DNA from: a phage
DNA length: 64,000 nucleotides
Sequence record: PZ445428.1
Reading direction: 5' to 3' (one strand)
The position numbers were made by a program, and so were the translations under genes. Shown piece after piece: positions 13,253 to 32,637 of this stretch (position 1 is its first letter; every line of letters starts with the position of its first letter). The notes under the pieces were generated by a model. It did no database searches. It had not been told where the DNA came from and was given only the letters and a program-made list of their open reading frames with translations.

Positions 13253-13954
13253 ATGAAAGTAAAACCATTTGGTATGCTGGACATTGAATCCCTAGGGACT
13301 CCAGATAACTGTGGAACAACCCATATCGCAATGCCGTCTTTCGCTTTCGTAGCCATGCACGGAATTGATACAGACCCTGACCTGATCTTCGTAACCCTAG
13401 ACGTTCAAGATCAACTTAATGCAGGTGCTAAAGTTACTGCATCTACATTTGCTTTCTGGATGGATCAGGCTAAAAATAGCCCATCTGCCCTCCACATTAT
13501 GGAAGCTTTACAAAGCAAAGGTGCAAAACTCATTGCATTCCGTGATGGTAAACACCAGTGCACTAATGAACTAGGTTCAAACTATGGAGCTTACCTCATG
13601 GCTAAGAACATGATGGAAATCTTCCTAGACGAAAATGCACTGTACTACGGCAATGGCCCAGAATTTGATATGACTATCTACTCTGCTAATACGTTCCATG
13701 CTGGAACTAATGAAGCAGTCGTTCCATGGAAATTCTGGAATCTGGGTAACGTTCGTTCTTTCCGTAATCTGTGGATGCAAGCAGGTTATAATTACAAAGA
13801 ACTGGAAGCCGAAGGTGCTAGCTGGGCTAAGGCTAAAATGGAGAAGATGGACACCATTCGTTATGGAATCTATCCAGTTAAGCATGATCCAGCATTCGAT
13901 GCATTAGTTGAAAGTTACTGCGTTGCGCGCATGATCGAAAAAATCAAAATTTGA
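13253..13954 (+). CDS. putative DEDD-family 3'-5' exonuclease
   Basis: N-terminal LDIESLG resembles Exo-I (D.E) motif; 233 aa. Confidence 0.4.
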   Translation: MKVKPFGMLDIESLGTPDNCGTTHIAMPSFAFVAMHGIDTDPDLIFVTLDVQDQLNAGAKVTASTFAFWMDQAKNSPSALHIMEALQSKGAKLIAFRDGKHQCTNELGSNYGAYLMAKNMMEIFLDENALYYGNGPEFDMTIYSANTFHAGTNEAVVPWKFWNLGNVRSFRNLWMQAGYNYKELEAEGASWAKAKMEKMDTIRYGIYPVKHDPAFDALVESYCVARMIEKIKI

Positions 13955-24625: not shown

Positions 24626-24702
24626 GGGGGTGTAATCGAATTGGCATAGGTACTGGACTTAAAATTCAGGTTTTGTGGGTTCGAATCCCACCACCCCTAC
24701 CA
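24626..24702 (+). tRNA. tRNA with TAA anticodon (Leu-like D-loop, short variable loop)
   Basis: Acceptor GGGGGTG/CACCCCT, anticodon stem CTGGA/TTCAG loop CTTAAAA, T-arm GTGGG-TTCGAAT-CCCAC, CCA encoded; D-arm imperfect. Confidence 0.5.
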
Positions 24703-28910: not shown

Positions 28911-29150
28911 ATTTATATAAATTGATGGGGAGAAATCCTCATCAAAGTTCACTAAGGTATTAGCTCGACCTAGGACTGGCTGCCACCAAGCACGATCCCT
29001 ACGACTCGGGAGAAGTTCTAGATTAGTCCACTAGATTCAGCGGCAACTGAATAGTGTATCGGGTTTGTGAAGAGCGGGTATCCAAGCCTGGCTAATGGCA
29101 CTGGGTATTACGCACACCGAGCTAATAGCCTTAGTAAACTTGAAGAATTT

Positions 29151-29225
29151 GGGCGAATAGTGTCAGCGGGAGCACACCAGACTTGCAATCTGGTAGGGAG
29201 GGTTCGAGTCCCTCTTTGTCCACCA
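29151..29225 (+). tRNA. tRNA-Ala (anticodon TGC)
   Basis: Acceptor GGGCGAA/TTTGTCC, anticodon stem CCAGA/TCTGG loop CTTGCAA, T-arm GAGGG-TTCGAGT-CCCTC, CCA. Confidence 0.65.
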
Positions 29226-29231
29226 AATTTT

Positions 29232-29307
29232 GGGGTCATAGGTTATTTGGTTAAACTTACTGCCTTGCAAGCAGTAGAACTCAGTTCAATTCTGAGTGAC
29301 TCCACCA
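29232..29307 (+). tRNA. tRNA with TGC anticodon (second Ala-type)
   Basis: Acceptor GGGGTCA/TGACTCC, anticodon stem ACTGC/GCAGT loop CTTGCAA, T-arm CTCAG-TTCAATT-CTGAG, CCA. Confidence 0.6.
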
Positions 29308-29326
29308 AACAAATTAAGGAAATAAT

Positions 29327-29545
29327 ATGGTATTCTTAGCAGCCTCTGTAGTTCTTGCATCTTTAGCGTTAGCTATCTATTTTAGAACTGCTAAAGATTT
29401 ATCTAAAGAAAAGAAAACTTTCTTTACTGATTACTCTTGGGGTGCTCCATACGCTATCAATTCTATCAGTCTAGAAGCTATGTTGATAATGGTATTCAGT
29501 GGTATAGGTTCTATCGTTGCTGGATTACTTTTTATTTCTAACTAA
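29327..29545 (+). CDS. small membrane protein (72 aa)
   Basis: ORF track; two hydrophobic helices. Confidence 0.45.
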   Translation: MVFLAASVVLASLALAIYFRTAKDLSKEKKTFFTDYSWGAPYAINSISLEAMLIMVFSGIGSIVAGLLFISN

Positions 29546-29552
29546 ACAAAAT

Positions 29553-29633
29553 GGGGATGTGGCGAAATTGGCAGACGCGCTAGATTTAGGTTCTAGTCTT
29601 CGGGTGTGGGTTCGAGTCCCTCCATCCCTACCA
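29553..29633 (+). tRNA. tRNA-Leu (anticodon TAG)
   Basis: Acceptor GGGGATG/CATCCCT, Leu-type D-loop GAAATTGGCAGAC, anticodon stem CTAGA/TCTAG loop TTTAGGT, extended variable region, T-loop TTCGAGT, CCA. Confidence 0.65.
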
Positions 29634-29653
29634 TTTTAAAATAGGATTAATTA

Positions 29654-29818
29654 ATGTTAAAGATGCCAGTAAAACATATTTGGTTAGCTAGAAATAGGGC
29701 TACTAATGAATTTGTCTTTATTGATACAGGAATGACATATGATCAACGAATATATGATCTTCTGTATTCCGTGTCTGCTGAAGAAGTACACAAATTAATT
29801 CTAAAAGATGCAACATAA
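29654..29818 (+). CDS. hypothetical protein (54 aa)
   Basis: Hand-translated ORF between two tRNAs; weak RBS; below track cutoff. Confidence 0.3.
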   Translation: MLKMPVKHIWLARNRATNEFVFIDTGMTYDQRIYDLLYSVSAEEVHKLILKDAT

Positions 29819-29820
29819 TT

Positions 29821-29913
29821 GGAAGAGCAAATCGACTTGGTGACGAAAACCGCTTGGAAAGTGGCTGACTTGTGAAAGCAGGCTTGAGAGTTCGAATCTC
29901 TCTTCTTCCGCCA
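29821..29913 (+). tRNA. tRNA-Ser (anticodon GGA)
   Basis: Acceptor GGAAGAG/TTCTTCC, 3-bp D-stem, anticodon loop TTGGAAA, long variable arm, T-arm GAGAG-TTCGAAT-CTCTC, CCA. Confidence 0.65.
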
Positions 29914-29920
29914 AACAATT

Positions 29921-30010
29921 GGAAGTACGGGCGTAGTGGTATGCAACTAGTCTTGAAAACTAGCCCGCTGTAGCGATATGGTGATGGTTCGACTCCATGT
30001 GCTTCCGCCA
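29921..30010 (+). tRNA. tRNA-Ser (anticodon TGA)
   Basis: Acceptor GGAAGTA/TGCTTCC, anticodon stem CTAGT/ACTAG loop CTTGAAA, long variable arm, T-loop TTCGACT, CCA. Confidence 0.7.
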
Positions 30011-30016
30011 AATCTT

Positions 30017-30145
30017 GGAATATGCCGGAATTGGTAGACGGGACTGCCGAATAGGTTTACTAGGAACATCCACTCCTAGAAATATACCTTAAAAGCGGTT
30101 GAGTTAAATGGTCTAACTCGTGAAGGTTCAAGTCCTTCTATTCCT
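30017..30145 (+). tRNA. oversized tRNA-Leu(TAA)-like gene (~129 nt) with ~40-nt insertion in anticodon arm; possible intron-containing or disrupted tRNA
   Basis: Acceptor GGAATA/TATTCC, Leu-type D-arm CCG-GAATTGGTAGA-CGG, T-arm GAAGG-TTCAAGT-CCTTC, variable hairpin GAGTTA...TAACTC, anticodon stem ACTGC/GCGGT enclosing CTTAAAA loop plus inserted hairpin CTAGGA...TCCTAG; no CCA. Confidence 0.35.
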
Positions 30146-30395
30146 TGATACATCAATGGCTCAAAGAGTAACGGTGCACCTTTCTAGAGAATTTCCTGGG
30201 CGAGAATCCAGGTGTAATCAACTAGTCGTTAGTGTGATGAGTTTCGGAGAGCCGCCACAATTGAAGATCATTGTCTGTTTGAGTCTACCATTTAGGGTCG
30301 TTACTTGTAGCGCCTATCTGCTAGGTCTAATCACTAGGTAAAGGCATGCAAGCTTCTAGTGTAGAGAGTTCGCTACTCCTCGATGGTTTTCAATT

Positions 30396-30472
30396 GTGGC
30401 TATATCATAATTGGTTAATGATCCTGATTGTGAATCAGGCCTATGTGGATTCGAGTTCCACTAGCCACCCCA
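30396..30472 (+). tRNA. tRNA-His (anticodon GTG)
   Basis: Acceptor GTGGCTA/TAGCCAC, anticodon stem CCTGA/TCAGG loop TTGTGAA, T-arm GTGGA-TTCGAGT-TCCAC, CCA. Confidence 0.75.
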
Positions 30473-30478
30473 AATATT

Positions 30479-30553
30479 GCGTCCTTATTTCAACGGAAAG
30501 AATGTAAAGCTACGAACTTTACGATCGGGGTTCGATTCCCTGAGGATGCACCA
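30479..30553 (+). tRNA. tRNA-Arg (anticodon ACG)
   Basis: Acceptor GCGTCCT/AGGATGC, anticodon stem TAAAG/CTTTA loop CTACGAA, T-loop TTCGATT, CCA. Confidence 0.7.
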
Positions 30554-30577
30554 ATTAACTTAAACAGGAAAATAATA

Positions 30578-30778
30578 ATGGCTGATTTCTGTAAAGAATG
30601 CTCTATCGATATGTGGGGCAAAGATACACAAGATCTTTCTGGTCTTATCACTGAAGCTGAAGTTAAAGAAGGCTATGGTGCTGTAGTAATCTGCGAAGGT
30701 TGTGGTATTATCCGTGTTGATCATGAAGGCAAACGCCTTGAAGAACCTGAGCCAATCGCAACGGTTCCTGTAGAGTAA
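30578..30778 (+). CDS. small zinc-ribbon protein (66 aa)
   Basis: ORF track 30443..30778 trimmed to ATG after AGGAAAATAATA (5' part of track ORF overlaps two tRNAs); CKEC...CEGCG. Confidence 0.5.
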   Translation: MADFCKECSIDMWGKDTQDLSGLITEAEVKEGYGAVVICEGCGIIRVDHEGKRLEEPEPIATVPVE

Positions 30779-30786
30779 CAAATTAT

Positions 30787-30862
30787 TGGGATGTAGATCA
30801 ATTGGCAGATCGTCGGCCTCTGACTCCGAAGGTTCCTGGTTCGATCCCAGGCATCCCAGCCA
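30787..30862 (+). tRNA. tRNA-Gln (anticodon CTG)
   Basis: T1-A72 acceptor TGGGATG/CATCCCA (Gln-like), anticodon loop CTCTGAC, T-arm CCTGG-TTCGATC-CCAGG, CCA. Confidence 0.65.
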
Positions 30863-30868
30863 AACAAT

Positions 30869-30944
30869 TGGAGAATAGTGTAGTGGTTCGCACAACGGCC
30901 TTTGACTCCGTTAGTGGTAGGTTCAATTCCTCCTTCTCCTGCCA
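30869..30944 (+). tRNA. tRNA-Gln (anticodon TTG)
   Basis: Acceptor (T)GGAGAA/TTCTCC(T), anticodon loop CTTTGAC, T-loop TTCAATT, CCA. Confidence 0.6.
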
Positions 30945-30950
30945 ATTTAT

Positions 30951-31025
30951 GCGTGATTAGTTCAGTGGCTAGAATAACTGGCTTCCAACCAGTAGACACG
31001 AGTTCGACTCTCGTATCCCGCACCA
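30951..31025 (+). tRNA. tRNA-Gly (anticodon TCC)
   Basis: Acceptor GCGTGAT/ATCCCGC, anticodon stem ACTGG/CCAGT loop CTTCCAA, T-arm ACGAG-TTCGACT-CTCGT, CCA. Confidence 0.7.
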
Positions 31026-31039
31026 AATAAGGAAACGTT

Positions 31040-31261
31040 ATGCACGTTTTTGAGTTTCGTAATAAAAGCCCCAATAGACGCGTTTTGATTATTGGTGAAA
31101 CATATCGAGCTTACGAGCAAGAAGATGGTTCAGTTTTACTAAACGATGAAAAGCAAGGTTATAGCTTTCATCCAGAAGAAACGTATGAAGAGTTTCGTAC
31201 TAAGTTTCTTTTACCAGACTGGCTAGCAGTAGCCGAGCAACGAGAATCCGAAGATGGCTGA
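31040..31261 (+). CDS. hypothetical protein (73 aa)
   Basis: ORF track; AAGGAAA RBS. Confidence 0.5.
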   Translation: MHVFEFRNKSPNRRVLIIGETYRAYEQEDGSVLLNDEKQGYSFHPEETYEEFRTKFLLPDWLAVAEQRESEDG

Positions 31262-31427
31262 TAACCTGAAACTAAAGGTTGACAAACAGAAGAAACGTGT
31301 AGAGATTGAGCTTGGTGACGAACGCCTAGCACTATCCTTCGAGTTTCTTCAGCAGTTGGCGATGACAGTAATGTCTGATAAGTCTCCTGTATTTGAAAAA
31401 GAAATCCCGTTGAAATGACGGGTTTAT

Positions 31428-31502
31428 TGCTCCTAAAGCATTGCTGGCGATGCAGTTGCCTTGTAAGCATCTGAACCGGGTTCGATTCCTGGTGGGAGCA
31501 CC
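31428..31502 (+). tRNA. tRNA-Thr (anticodon TGT)
   Basis: Acceptor GCTCCTA/TGGGAGC, D-stem GCAT/ATGC, anticodon loop CTTGTAA, T-arm CCGGG-TTCGATT-CCTGG, CCA. Confidence 0.65.
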
Positions 31503-31517
31503 AAATTTAAAAATTCA

Positions 31518-31546
31518 TTTGCCTTCTCTCTTATTTCTTGTTATAA
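31518..31546 (+). promoter_or_regulatory. early promoter cassette (-35 TTGCCT, -10 TATAAT)
   Basis: Hexamers with 17-bp spacer. Confidence 0.55.
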
Positions 31547-31577
31547 TATTTATATAAATTAATGAGAGGGAAACCAA

Positions 31578-31871
31578 ATGAAACGTTATCTTTCTGTCGT
31601 GTTCCAAACTGGTGGTCAGCGTTATACCTACGAATTTCCAGAGTCTTGGAAAATCAAAGAAGGTGATCAGGTTGTTGTACTGACACCGCGTGAAGGCTTC
31701 AAAGTGGTTACGGTTAAACAAGTATTTCCTAAAGATCACGAACCATCTAAATCTATTAATTATAAGATGATTCATGGTCTGGTACGAAAAGTACCACGGA
31801 CGGAAGTTGAAGTAGATAAAGATGGTGAAGCTAAATACCAGTATACTTCTTACCTAGACGAGATGCGATAA
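31578..31871 (+). CDS. hypothetical protein (97 aa)
   Basis: ORF track; cassette RBS GAGAGGGAA. Confidence 0.55.
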   Translation: MKRYLSVVFQTGGQRYTYEFPESWKIKEGDQVVVLTPREGFKVVTVKQVFPKDHEPSKSINYKMIHGLVRKVPRTEVEVDKDGEAKYQYTSYLDEMR

Positions 31872-32095
31872 TGAGAATTACCTTTACTGAGAAGATAATA
31901 TGTAATGGGATTATGATCATTACAGCGTGGGAAGGTAAACAATGGTGCAGTATAACGGGTCTTAAAGCAGAAGATCAAACACCAGAAAACATTCTCAAAA
32001 TAAAACAAAACATGGCAAAACATGCTAAACGTCCTGGTGCTCCTAGGAATGGCATACGTTTTGCAGCAAAATGCTCCGATAGTTCAAACGGTTAG
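31871..32095 (+). CDS. hypothetical protein (74 aa)
   Basis: ORF track; 3' end overlaps tRNA-Ile by about 20 nt, so the call is uncertain. Confidence 0.35.
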   Translation: MRITFTEKIICNGIMIITAWEGKQWCSITGLKAEDQTPENILKIKQNMAKHAKRPGAPRNGIRFAAKCSDSSNG

Positions 32096-32148
32096 AACAG
32101 GCGACCGATAATCGTCAAATCTTGGTTCGATCCCAAGTTGGAGTACCA
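32073..32148 (+). tRNA. tRNA-Ile (anticodon GAT)
   Basis: Acceptor GCTCCGA/TTGGAGT, anticodon stem GGCGA/TCGTC loop CCGATAA, T-arm CTTGG-TTCGATC-CCAAG, CCA. Confidence 0.65.
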
Positions 32149-32192
32149 AAACAACGGAGAGTCACTACCGTAAGTGTGAAGTTGAAAAATAT

Positions 32193-32268
32193 AGTTAGTT
32201 GGCAGATCGGTTATGCACCTCCTTCATACGGAGCGATCAGAGTGGTTCGATTCCACTACTAACTACCA
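32193..32268 (+). tRNA. tRNA with CAT anticodon (Met/fMet/Ile2 class)
   Basis: Acceptor AGTTAGT/ACTAACT, anticodon loop TTCATAC, T-arm AGTGG-TTCGATT-CCACT, CCA. Confidence 0.6.
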
Positions 32269-32637
32269 AACAGAAGATCAGGCCATAGTGCCAGATCCTG
32301 CTGAGAAGAGAGTCCACATTCTATAAATGGACGGGCGTGACAGCAGGAAGTAGACTGCAACTCGATGCTATCTAAGAGTATAAATGTAGAAGCTAAGACT
32401 TTAGATAGTCATTGTCTTAGCGTGAGTAATCACGTAGTTGCAACAGACCAGGAAGATCGCAACGTTAAAATCAAAGCTCCTGTGCTTTTCTTCTTAATCG
32501 AGACCATCAATCTCACCGGAATGCTAGCACCCCAACAGTAGCTAGTGATTAAGAGAAAAGCAAACCTGCCTTCCAGTTTTTATCTTGCTTCTGGGTTATC
32601 AAAAAGCTGAGCCAATTTCTAACATCAGGGAGATCTA

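What the first reader, a model, noticed from the sequence alone, without database searches (positions are those of the whole stretch)
30017..30145. Oversized tRNA-Leu-like gene with a ~40-nt insertion in the anticodon arm
Acceptor halves GGAATA/TATTCC, a Leu-type D-arm (CCG-GAATTGGTAGA-CGG), a variable-arm hairpin (GAGTTA...TAACTC) and a canonical T-arm (GAAGG-TTCAAGT-CCTTC) are all present, but the acceptor strands lie 129 nt apart. An intact CTTAAAA anticodon loop (anticodon TAA) abuts the 3' anticodon-stem strand GCGGT, which pairs with ACTGC 47 nt upstream; the intervening ~40 nt forms its own hairpin (CTAGGA...TCCTAG). This is either an intron-like insertion of a size not expected for bacterial or phage tRNAs (bacterial group I tRNA introns are over 200 nt) or a disrupted/pseudo tRNA. 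No CCA is encoded, unlike neighbouring tRNAs.
Basis: seen in the sequence. Interest (0 to 1): 0.6.

Follow-up and report, generated by a model that had tools for sequence, protein, structure and literature searches.

The report
Phage T5-type tRNA-like stable RNA1
This is one phage's copy of 'RNA1', a tRNA-shaped small RNA annotated in phage T5 long ago but still without a function; its anticodon arm is replaced by a long, strictly conserved hairpin, so it is neither an intron-containing tRNA nor a broken tRNA gene.

Summary
The window is Escherichia phage TrudiGerster, a T5 relative. The stretch is unannotated there. In phage T5 and Salmonella phage 5 the orthologous stretch is annotated as 'rna1, tRNA-like stable RNA with unknown functions' (144 nt).

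Thirty-five distinct orthologs from several genera of the family Demerecviridae all keep the ~40-nt insertion. All seven helices show compensatory base changes (17 of 36 pairs).

The supposed CTTAAAA anticodon loop lies in the least conserved segment. ARAGORN in intron mode calls the orthologs Leu(taa), Phe(aaa) or Val(aac), with different 'intron' positions. The apical loop of the inserted hairpin (ACAUCCAC, core CAUCC) is the most conserved segment.

The body is derived from tRNA-Leu. It ends in U, with no A73 and no CCA.

Best model: a non-decoding RNA in which a tRNA body gives processing and stability and holds out a conserved loop, like the engineered 'tRNA scaffold'. The partner of that loop is unknown.

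The entity is already known and its function is still open, so interest is moderate.

The parts
30014..30157 (+). Full extent of the RNA1 ortholog, using the ends annotated in phage T5 (rna1, T5s03, 144 nt)
   Evidence: T5 misc_RNA at L002 1205-1348. The covariance model aligns L002 1202-1349 with window 30011-30158. 95% identity to T5.
30017..30022 (+). Acceptor-like stem, 5' strand (GGAATA). T30023 and G30024 correspond to U8 and G9.
   Evidence: Pairs with 30139-30144. Four of the 6 pairs show changes on both sides among orthologs.
30025..30041 (+). D-arm of tRNA-Leu type (CCG / GAATTGGTAGA / CGG), with the elbow-forming GG
   Evidence: Column identity 0.96. My1 has CUG/CAG, a compensatory change. 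The same D-arm occurs in phage genes that ARAGORN calls tRNA-Leu.
30043..30047 (+). Proximal helix of the extended arm, 5' strand (ACTGC). This is the former anticodon stem.
   Evidence: Pairs with 30095-30099. Three of 5 pairs show changes on both sides.
30048..30053 (+). A-rich internal loop, 5' side (CGAATA; CTAAAR in most orthologs)
   Evidence: Alignments; column identity 0.84.
30054..30059 (+). Middle helix, 5' strand (GGTTTA)
   Evidence: Pairs with 30083-30088. This is the weakest helix: 80% of cells paired and one pair changed on both sides.
30060..30079 (+). Apical hairpin CTAGGA-ACATCCAC-TCCTAG. The loop at 30066-30073 is the most conserved segment of the RNA.
   Evidence: Four of 6 stem pairs show changes on both sides. 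Loop column identity is 0.986, against 0.70-0.73 for its own stem. The core CAUCC is kept in My1.
30080..30082 (+). 3-nt bulge (AAA) between the apical and middle helices
   Evidence: Structure used.
30083..30088 (+). Middle helix, 3' strand (TATACC)
30088..30094 (+). It is really the 3' side of the internal loop, and C30088 also closes the middle helix.
   Evidence: Least conserved segment, column identity 0.70. The sequence differs between lineages.
30095..30099 (+). Proximal helix, 3' strand (GCGGT)
30101..30119 (+). Long variable arm GAGTTA-AATGGTC-TAACTC (a class II tRNA feature). The loop is nearly invariant.
   Evidence: Three of 6 pairs show changes on both sides. Loop column identity 0.98.
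30122..30138 (+). T-arm GAAGG-TTCAAGT-CCTTC
   Evidence: 100% of cells paired. My1 has GUAGG/CCUAC, a compensatory change. The Rfam tRNA model aligns here.
30139..30146 (+). Acceptor-like stem, 3' strand (TATTCC), followed by TT. There is U where a discriminator would be, and no CCA.
   Evidence: this T is nearly invariant; ARAGORN drawing.

Best explanation
The locus is the TrudiGerster ortholog of phage T5 gene rna1. It encodes a stable RNA of about 144 nt that derives from a class II tRNA-Leu gene but no longer decodes.

The upper half of the tRNA is retained: the acceptor-like stem, the Leu-type D-arm with its GG, the T-arm and the long variable arm. This half most likely folds into the tRNA L-shape. 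That would let the host tRNA-maturation machinery cut the RNA out of the polycistronic tRNA transcript and would protect it from decay.

The anticodon stem-loop has been rebuilt into a long arm of fixed length. From the body outward it has 5 pairs, an A-rich internal loop, 3-5 pairs, a bulge and 6 pairs. The arm is capped by a near-invariant loop, ACAUCCAC, with core CAUCC.

That loop is the working end and is recognised by a partner not yet identified, either a protein or an RNA. The near-invariant variable-arm loop may be a second contact. In effect this is a natural counterpart of the engineered 'tRNA scaffold'.

Shown: orthology, structure, selection, and the absence of a conserved anticodon. 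Taken from the database annotation only: that it accumulates as a stable RNA. Inferred: processing by tRNA enzymes, that the loop is a binding site, and what it does for the phage.
For: Identity:
- The tested 2.5-kb stretch is 100% identical to Escherichia phage TrudiGerster.
- The stretch is 95% identical to T5 and 86% to Salmonella phage 5. Both annotate it as 'rna1: tRNA-like stable RNA with unknown functions', between tRNA-Ser(UGA) and RNA I, RNA III and tRNA-His.

Structure under selection:
- 25 orthologs: 95% of cells paired and 12 pairs changed on both sides.
- 35 orthologs including Pectobacterium phage My1: 95.6% paired, 17 of 36 pairs changed on both sides, at least one in every helix, against at most 4 when partners are slid.
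- Length is almost fixed at 148-149 nt in the 34 sequences extracted.

No decoding:
- The putative anticodon segment has the lowest column identity, 0.70.
- ARAGORN in intron mode gives Leu(taa), Phe(aaa) or Val(aac) with the intron at different positions.
- U follows the acceptor strand and no CCA is encoded.
- The phage already has a separate tRNA-Leu(UAA) at 24626-24702.

Working end:
- Apical loop identity is 0.986 while its own stem, at 0.70-0.73, changes by compensation.
- My1 keeps CAUCC.

Origin from tRNA-Leu:
- After RNA1 itself, the covariance model scores ordinary class II tRNA-Leu genes best. Examples are 61.7 bits for L052 with the insertion skipped and 39 bits for the window's tRNA-Leu(TAG).

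Context:
- No promoter-like site on the + strand lies upstream of it (the only + strand match sits inside tRNA-Ser), and there is no terminator-like site apart from its own T-arm.
- It directly follows the CCA end of tRNA-Ser in both TrudiGerster and My1.

Analogy:
- In E. coli, tRNA bodies with a hairpin inserted in place of the anticodon loop are processed and accumulate stably (PMC3753655).
Against: - No partner was found. There is no significant complement to the loop in the 64-kb window (7 matches against 4.0 expected, the only exact one being the element itself). There is no exact complement in an E. coli rRNA operon.
- Stability and the 144-nt ends rest on database annotation. The primary papers could not be read here.
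- The T5 mutant T5-123 (deletion 29191-32442) grows, and rna1 at 30501-30644 falls inside that deletion if the coordinates use the same reference. Any function is therefore dispensable in the laboratory (PMC11464382).
- The acceptor-like stem has only 6 pairs. In the genus Sugarlandvirus it is replaced by a 13-pair terminal helix. Maturation as a tRNA is therefore not assured.
- Single-sequence folding energy is only modestly better than shuffles (z about -2).
Confidence: 0.6

Rival explanations
1. Decoy or sponge. RNA1 mimics a class II tRNA body in order to occupy a host or defence factor that binds tRNAs, such as a tRNA-cleaving defence nuclease, a toxin acting on tRNA, or a tRNA enzyme. 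The long arm and its loop would add affinity or block catalysis. This is a specific version of the best explanation, not a contradiction of it.
For: - The tRNA elbow elements (D-loop GG, T-loop) and the Leu-type D-arm are almost invariant.
- There is no conserved anticodon, so there is no decoding.
- T5 tRNAs are documented as countermeasures to tRNA-cleaving defences: PARIS (PMC11464382) and retron Eco7 (cited in PMC10644984).
- The RNA is dispensable on laboratory strains, as anti-defence genes usually are.
Against: - There is no direct evidence.
- Rescue from PARIS mapped to a different fragment of the T5 genome (31885-32870), not to rna1.
- A decoy for an anticodon nuclease would be expected to keep an anticodon-like loop, which is not conserved here.
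Confidence: 0.2
2. Intron-containing tRNA-Leu(UAA). The 40 nt are removed after transcription to give a ~91-nt functional tRNA.
For: ARAGORN with intron search returns tRNA-Leu(taa) i(33,40) for the window copy and for the T5 copy. One public record (JLBYU40) annotates the ortholog as tRNA-Leu.
Against: - The same program gives Phe(aaa) or Val(aac), with introns at positions 35-39, in the other lineages.
- The loop that splicing would create is the least conserved segment, and the 'intron' loop the most conserved.
- No ortholog among 35 distinct sequences lacks the insertion.
- 40 nt is far below the size of a group I intron, and no intron family matches in Rfam.
- Enterobacteria have no known enzymatic tRNA splicing (established knowledge).
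- U instead of the A73 needed by LeuRS (established knowledge), and no CCA.
- T5 annotates a stable RNA of unspliced length.
- The phage has another tRNA-Leu(UAA).
Confidence: 0.03
3. Relic with a processing role only. It is a dead tRNA gene kept merely as a punctuation mark, so that RNase P and other nucleases can cut the long tRNA transcript and release its neighbours. The insertion itself would have no function.
For: - It lies inside a dense tRNA array without clear transcription signals of its own.
- In T5 its annotated 3' end abuts the 5' end of RNA I.
Against: - The inserted hairpin is kept by compensatory changes, and its loop is nearly invariant across genera. A punctuation role does not require that.
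- In My1 and Sugarland, RNA I and RNA III are absent and different sequence follows, yet RNA1 is conserved.
- Ordinary tRNAs on both sides already provide processing sites.
Confidence: 0.1

Closest known systems
Phage T5 RNA1 (gene rna1, T5s03; also annotated in Salmonella phage 5, AJ604531)
   Same: It is the ortholog: 95% identity to T5, the same gene order (tRNA-Ser, tRNA-Ser, RNA1, RNA I, RNA III, tRNA-His) and the same length.
   Different: Nothing essential. TrudiGerster lacks the small ORF T5.063 that sits upstream in T5. The T5 loop reads ACAUCCGC rather than ACAUCCAC. The TrudiGerster record does not annotate the RNA.
Phage T4 RNAC and RNAD (stable RNA 'species 1 and 2' of the T4 tRNA cluster)
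   Same: They are small stable RNAs transcribed from a phage tRNA gene region, and their biological roles are still unknown after decades (PMC3014915; PMC9697503).
   Different: No sequence relationship was tested or is claimed. T4 belongs to a different phage family. Whether the T4 RNAs have a tRNA body with an extended anticodon arm was not examined here.
Engineered 'tRNA scaffold' for recombinant RNA expression in E. coli
   Same: The design is the same: acceptor stem, T-arm and D-arm are kept and a hairpin is inserted where the anticodon stem-loop was. Such chimeras are recognised by cellular factors, processed and protected from nucleases (PMC3753655).
   Different: That is an artificial construct built on tRNA-Lys3 or tRNA-Met. 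RNA1 is natural, derives from a class II tRNA-Leu, has a 6-pair acceptor-like stem and lacks an encoded CCA. Its processing has not been demonstrated here.
Class II bacterial and phage tRNA-Leu
   Same: The D-arm (GCCGGAAYYGGTAKAYGGG), the long variable arm, the T-arm and the overall cloverleaf. The RNA1 covariance model scores true tRNA-Leu genes next best.
   Different: No 7-nt anticodon loop, no conserved anticodon, U instead of A73, no CCA, a 6-pair acceptor, and about 40 extra nucleotides.
Other tRNA mimics (the tRNA-like domain of tmRNA, bacterial Y RNA YrlA)
   Same: They reuse the acceptor, T-arm and D-loop architecture for a non-decoding job (established knowledge).
   Different: ARAGORN found no tmRNA, and no Rfam tRNA-like family other than the tRNA clan matched. 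There is no tag reading frame. By my recollection YrlA has its ends in the other helix; that was not tested here.

Membership tests
T5 RNA1 (rna1) family of Demerecviridae | Sequence orthology to the annotated T5 and phage 5 rna1 gene | tested here: met
   95.2% identity to T5 and 85.6% to phage 5 over the whole element. The features are annotated misc_RNA rna1. The covariance model scores 174.8 bits.
T5 RNA1 (rna1) family of Demerecviridae | Conserved position in the tRNA array, directly after tRNA-Ser(UGA) | tested here: met
   Window 30010/30014. T5 and phage 5. In My1 it also follows a ...CTTCCGCCA end.
T5 RNA1 (rna1) family of Demerecviridae | Accumulates as a stable RNA of about 144 nt in infected cells | not testable with these tools
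   Stated only in the database annotation. No expression data were available.
Functional (decoding) tRNA-Leu | Cloverleaf with acceptor, D, variable and T arms | tested here: met
   All of these helices are supported by covariation or are invariant.
Functional (decoding) tRNA-Leu | A 7-nt anticodon loop on a 5-pair stem, with a conserved anticodon | tested here: not met
   47 nt lie between the stem strands. The loop-like segment varies between lineages. ARAGORN's anticodon calls are inconsistent.
Functional (decoding) tRNA-Leu | Detected by standard tRNA models | tested here: not met
   ARAGORN in default mode makes no call. Rfam RF00005 gives 24 bits against a gathering score of 29, and only for the 3' half.
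Functional (decoding) tRNA-Leu | A73 discriminator (a LeuRS identity element in E. coli, established knowledge) and a 3' CCA | tested here: not met
   The acceptor strand is followed by TTGATA, and the T is nearly invariant. Whether CCA is added after transcription cannot be told.
Intron-containing tRNA | A self-splicing (group I) core in the insertion | tested here: not met
   The insertion is about 40 nt. No intron family appears in an Rfam scan at E <= 10.
Intron-containing tRNA | The same exon junction and mature anticodon in all orthologs | tested here: not met
   Leu(taa) i(33), Phe(aaa) i(35-37) and Val(aac) i(39).
Intron-containing tRNA | Exons more constrained than the intron, and intron-less alleles exist | tested here: not met
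   The inserted loop is the most conserved segment (0.986), while the junction segment scores 0.70. All 35 distinct orthologs carry the insertion.
Intron-containing tRNA | A spliced product is observed | not testable with these tools
   This needs RNA sequencing or a Northern blot.
tRNA pseudogene | Relaxed constraint: helices decay and length varies | tested here: not met
   95.6% of cells paired, 17 pairs changed on both sides, and essentially no indels.
tmRNA and other curated tRNA-like RNA families | A match to the family model | tested here: not met
   ARAGORN finds no tmRNA. Rfam gives only weak hits from the tRNA clan.

The most novel reading that the evidence does not exclude
RNA1 is a natural 'tRNA-scaffolded' effector RNA. 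A tRNA-Leu body, matured by host tRNA enzymes, delivers a conserved CAUCC loop that binds a specific host or defence factor.

It would also be one example of a wider, undescribed habit of phages: turning tRNA-Leu-like genes in their tRNA arrays into carriers of inserted RNA modules. Two unrelated examples turned up here. One is a ~40-nt insertion in a 276-kb phage contig (L048). The other is a covarying family of ~160-190 nt in large phages, including the cyanophage S-CRM01.
Probability: 0.3. Interest if true: 0.65.

Novelty: already known. Interest (0 to 1): 0.35.

Why it matters
RNA1 has stood in the T5 annotation for about two decades as a 'tRNA-like stable RNA with unknown functions'. It is missing from most newer annotations of T5-like phages, and one record calls it tRNA-Leu.

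The comparison made here turns a vague label into a testable model. The anticodon is not what is conserved. An 8-nt loop, held at a fixed distance from a tRNA body, is conserved instead. That points experiments at one small target.

If the loop binds a host or defence factor, T5-like phages would join the growing list of phages that use tRNA-related RNAs against their hosts. These phages are common in phage-therapy and food-safety collections.

There is also a practical point. Gene callers should not count this locus as a tRNA-Leu, with or without an intron.

Tried and rejected
- Target search. The complement of the loop (GAGTGGATGTTC, up to 2 mismatches) gave 7 matches in the window against 4.0 expected, the only exact one being the element itself. 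There is no exact complement in an E. coli rRNA operon, and duplex energies were unremarkable. The partial complementarity to T5 RNA III seen by eye is not kept in TrudiGerster.
- Host origin or prophage copies. There is no match in 5,426 complete E. coli genomes.
- A second copy or mobile element. The covariance model finds a single copy in the window.
- Wider relatives. A second blastn from the Pectobacterium DU_PP_V copy found the same 493 records. Vibrio phage pVp-1 has only normal class II tRNAs in the 49 kb searched. A loose metagenome pattern returned mostly unrelated tRNAs, with 6 true RNA1 copies, all T5-like.
- Dependence on the neighbouring RNA I and RNA III. Rejected, because they are absent next to RNA1 in My1 and Sugarland.
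- Regulation of a downstream gene in cis. Rejected, because the downstream neighbour differs between lineages.
- Protein coding. Small CDSs annotated over it in some Klebsiella phage records are not compatible with the paired compensatory changes.
- Literature. Several full-text searches found no paper that describes a function for T5 RNA1. The primary Russian and older papers are not held.
- The NrdA protein search, meant to count T5 relatives, was too unspecific. It gives only a rough denominator: 533 records at 60% identity or more, against 493 with RNA1.

Full report
**1.

- Acceptor strands GGAATA 30017-30022 and TATTCC 30139-30144.
- A D-arm at 30025-30041.
- ACTGC 30043-30047 pairing with GCGGT 30095-30099, 47 nt apart.
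- A hairpin CTAGGA-ACATCCAC-TCCTAG at 30060-30079.
- CTTAAAA at 30088-30094.
- A variable-arm hairpin at 30101-30119.
- A T-arm at 30122-30138.
- No encoded CCA: TATTCC is followed by TTGATA.

The acceptor has six Watson-Crick pairs plus a U.U apposition at the position of pair 1-72.

- ARAGORN in default mode finds nothing here.
- The Rfam tRNA model matches only the 3' half, at 24 bits against a threshold of 29.
- ARAGORN with intron search calls tRNA-Leu(taa) with a 40-nt intron.
- The single-sequence fold gives the cloverleaf with a long arm, with only a modest z-score of about -2.

**2. What the locus is called elsewhere**

The tested 2.5-kb stretch is 100% identical to Escherichia phage TrudiGerster (Bas27), genus Epseptimavirus, family Demerecviridae. 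The stretch is unannotated there. It sits between tRNA-Ser(UGA) and a 'hypothetical protein'.

In phage T5 (95% identity) and in Salmonella phage 5 (86%) the orthologous stretch is annotated 'rna1, RNA1: tRNA-like stable RNA with unknown functions', 144 nt. It is followed directly by the stable RNAs RNA I and RNA III and then by tRNA-His. Transferred to the window, RNA1 spans about 30014-30157.

The entity is therefore already known and named. Its function is not. I could not read the primary papers, so 'stable RNA' rests on the annotation alone.

**3. Comparative structure**

blastn finds the element in 493 phage records, from Salmonella, Escherichia, Klebsiella, Citrobacter, Shigella, Yersinia and Pectobacterium phages. 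I collected distinct copies from annotated records and from IMG/VR.

A covariance model built from them found a further, unannotated homolog in Pectobacterium phage My1, at 81 bits and E = 5e-21.

On 35 distinct sequences the cloverleaf with an extended arm gives these figures:
- 95.6% of cells paired, against 41-53% when partners are slid.
- 17 of 36 pairs changed on both sides, against at most 4 when slid.
- At least one pair changed on both sides in each of the seven helices.
- None of 500 shuffles reaches the observed values for percentage paired, pairs or cells changed on both sides, or covariation score. The count of further pair types does not stand out (150 of 500).

The inserted hairpin is the best-supported helix, with 4 of 6 pairs changed on both sides. 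Examples are CTAGGA/TCCTAG, AGCAGA/TCTGCA, TGGGGA/TCCCCG and TTGAGA/TCTCAA. Length is almost fixed. This is an RNA under purifying selection for its structure.

**4. Test of the intron reading**

If the 40 nt were an intron, the exon-derived anticodon loop should be conserved and the intron free to vary or be lost. The opposite is seen.
- CTTAAAA is confined to the T5/TrudiGerster lineage. Other lineages have CTCATAAA, CCGAAAAC, CAGAAAAC or CTCGACGG.
- That segment has the lowest column identity of the molecule, 0.70. The apical loop of the insertion has the highest, 0.986, flanked by stem strands at 0.70-0.73.
- ARAGORN in intron mode assigns Leu(taa) i(33,40), Phe(aaa) i(35-37,41) or Val(aac) i(39,40), depending on lineage.
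- No ortholog lacks the insertion.
- No intron family matches in Rfam.
- The T5 annotation gives the unspliced length.
- The phage has a separate tRNA-Leu(UAA) at 24626-24702.
- From established knowledge, enterobacteria lack enzymatic tRNA splicing and E. coli LeuRS needs A73. RNA1 has U there.

I put the intron reading at about 3%.

**5. Test of the pseudogene reading**

Decay predicts broken helices and length drift. Neither is seen.

A role purely as a processing signal does not explain the invariant loop at the end of a covarying hairpin. Nor does it explain conservation in My1 and Sugarland, where RNA I and RNA III are absent and different sequence follows.

**6. Origin**

The D-arm GCCGGAAYYGGTAKAYGGG is the one found in phage genes that ARAGORN calls tRNA-Leu. 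After RNA1 itself, the covariance model scores true class II tRNA-Leu genes best, by skipping the insertion. L052 scores 61.7 bits and the window's own tRNA-Leu(TAG) scores 39 bits. RNA1 is thus a remodelled tRNA-Leu.

There is no copy in complete E. coli genomes and no second copy in the window.

**7. Distribution**

RNA1 is present in the subfamily Markadamsvirinae (Tequintavirus, Epseptimavirus), in the genus Sugarlandvirus and in the subfamily Mccorquodalevirinae (Hongcheonvirus, Myunavirus).

It was not found in the 49 kb of Vibrio phage pVp-1 (subfamily Ermolyevavirinae) that holds its tRNA region. A metagenome scan added only T5-like copies.

In Sugarlandvirus the six-pair acceptor-like stem is replaced by a 13-pair terminal helix, CGCGTTGATGCCG/CGGGGTTAGCGTG. 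I read this from the alignment. It suggests that a free aminoacyl-acceptor end is not what matters.

**8. Context**

No promoter-like site on the + strand lies upstream of RNA1. The only + strand match sits inside tRNA-Ser. There is no terminator-like site apart from its own T-arm. RNA1 starts a few bases after the CCA of tRNA-Ser. It is most likely part of the polycistronic tRNA transcript; this is an inference.

The T5 deletion mutant T5-123 (deletion 29191-32442) is viable, and rna1 at 30501-30644 lies within that deletion if the coordinate systems agree (PMC11464382). The RNA is therefore dispensable on laboratory hosts.

**9. How it most likely works**

Shown:
- The tRNA upper half is conserved, with intact elbow elements.
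- The arm has a fixed length: 5 pairs, an A-rich internal loop, 3-5 pairs, a 3-nt bulge and 6 pairs.
- The 8-nt loop ACAUCCAC is near-invariant. T5 itself has ACAUCCGC, My1 has CAUCCUA, and the shared core is CAUCC.
- The variable-arm loop AAUGGUC is also near-invariant.

Inferred:
- The tRNA body recruits RNase P and the other tRNA end-processing enzymes and confers stability.
- This is what happens to engineered 'tRNA scaffold' chimeras, in which a hairpin replaces the anticodon loop (PMC3753655).
- The apical loop is the recognition site for a partner.

A decoy or sponge role against a tRNA-binding host or defence factor is an attractive specific version, at about 20%. T5 tRNAs are already known to counter PARIS and retron Eco7. 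However, rescue from PARIS mapped elsewhere in the T5 genome, and nothing here points to a particular partner.

**10. Comparison with known things**

- It is a member of the T5 RNA1 family: orthology and gene order were tested and met, and expression could not be tested.
- It works like, but is not, a tRNA. It fails the anticodon-loop, detection-threshold, discriminator and CCA criteria.
- It is not an intron-containing tRNA, a pseudogene, a tmRNA or any curated Rfam family.
- Conceptually it sits closest to two things. One is the orphan stable RNAs RNAC and RNAD of the T4 tRNA cluster, whose roles are also unknown (PMC3014915 and PMC9697503). The other is the engineered tRNA scaffold.

**11. 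Novelty and score**

The entity is already known.

This analysis adds comparative evidence that I did not find in the accessible literature:
- Covariation in every helix.
- A non-conserved pseudo-anticodon.
- A conserved apical loop.
- Presence in My1.
- Independence from RNA I and RNA III.

That gives an old orphan RNA a concrete experiment. Interest is 0.35. The most novel reading not excluded is a natural tRNA-scaffolded effector that belongs to a wider class. I give it about 0.3 probability, and it would deserve about 0.65.

**12. Side finding**

A scan of IMG/VR for the Leu-type D-arm also hit unrelated large-phage contigs. In these, the same D-arm, a T-arm and a covarying acceptor stem enclose inserts of 110-130 nt.
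- Eight of them align into a structured family: 21 of 36 predicted pairs have compensatory changes.
- A stricter motif finds 23 contigs, of 1 to 519 kb and mostly over 60 kb. One is Synechococcus phage S-CRM01, where the element at 135432-135627 is unannotated.
- The family has no Rfam match.
- A 276-kb contig (L048) carries a tRNA-Leu-like gene with a ~40-nt hairpin insertion, built like RNA1 but unrelated in the insert.

These hint that tRNA-Leu bodies carrying inserted modules recur in phage tRNA arrays. I did not pursue this far enough to say more.

Noticed in passing
L053, L054, L058, L061, L062, L063, L044, L047 (IMG/VR contigs); L074 = Synechococcus phage S-CRM01 HQ615693 135432-135627: A second, unrelated family of tRNA-like RNAs of about 160-190 nt sits inside the tRNA arrays of large phages. 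A motif scan hit 23 contigs of 1-519 kb, mostly over 60 kb. Each has a Leu-type D-arm, a T-arm and a covarying acceptor stem around a conserved insert of 110-130 nt that begins GGTGTGG..TAAGYCRATAYGRA. Twenty-one of 36 predicted pairs have compensatory changes. There is no Rfam match, and the element is unannotated in S-CRM01.
   Followed up: partly
L048 603-741 (minus strand), IMG/VR contig of 276 kb: A tRNA-Leu-like gene (7-pair acceptor GGCCCCG/CGGGGCC, then A, then GCCA) carries a ~40-nt hairpin insertion (CACTAAG...CTTAGTG) in the anticodon arm. The architecture is the same as RNA1, but the insert is unrelated. ARAGORN in intron mode calls it tRNA-Phe(aaa) i(34,37), and the RNA1 model scores 53 bits.
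   Followed up: partly
window 30158-30257 and 30262-30395: These are the orthologs of T5 stable RNA I and RNA III. RNA I has a terminal stem GGCUC/GAGCC followed by GCCA. RNA III has a terminal stem of about 12 pairs. The GenBank record of TrudiGerster instead annotates a 61-aa 'hypothetical protein' (bas27_0126, window 30156-30341) across them, which is probably a miscall. RNA I has conserved ends and two quite different middle modules among relatives. An 11-nt complementary pair, CCACAATTGAA and TTCAATTGTGG, brackets RNA III.
   Followed up: partly
window 29821-29913 and 29921-30010: Two long tRNA-Ser genes (anticodons GGA and UGA, both ending in CCA) are annotated in GenBank. The session's ARAGORN run missed them, and in Rfam they score only as sub-threshold tRNA-Sec (25 and 38 bits against 47).
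   Followed up: partly
window 28958-29067: A stretch 96% identical to the first 110 nt of 'RNA 2H', another stable RNA of unknown function annotated in phages T5 and 5, upstream of tRNA-Ala.
   Followed up: no
window 24626-24702: The phage's ordinary tRNA-Leu(UAA) is only 77 nt long, with a short variable region. It is therefore built like a class I tRNA, which is unusual for a bacterial-type tRNA-Leu.
   Followed up: no
window 30066-30073; L201 (E. coli rrsH) position 994-1001: The 8-nt apical loop ACAUCCAC occurs once, in the same sense, in E. coli 16S rRNA. No exact complement occurs in the rRNA operon. By my own estimate an 8-mer would match about 4.5 kb of rRNA by chance with a probability near 0.07. 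The My1 loop differs. This is probably coincidence.
   Followed up: partly
L064 12627-12772 (minus strand), Pectobacterium phage My1 NC_018837: The My1 record does not annotate its RNA1 homolog. It also does not annotate an apparent class II tRNA-Leu at L064 14270-14368, or a tRNA-Ser-like gene at 13667-13771, both found with the RNA1 model.
   Followed up: no
Escherichia phage JLBYU40 NC_105514.1 30711-30848: This public record annotates its RNA1 ortholog as 'tRNA-Leu', showing that annotation pipelines can miscount this locus as a tRNA.
   Followed up: no
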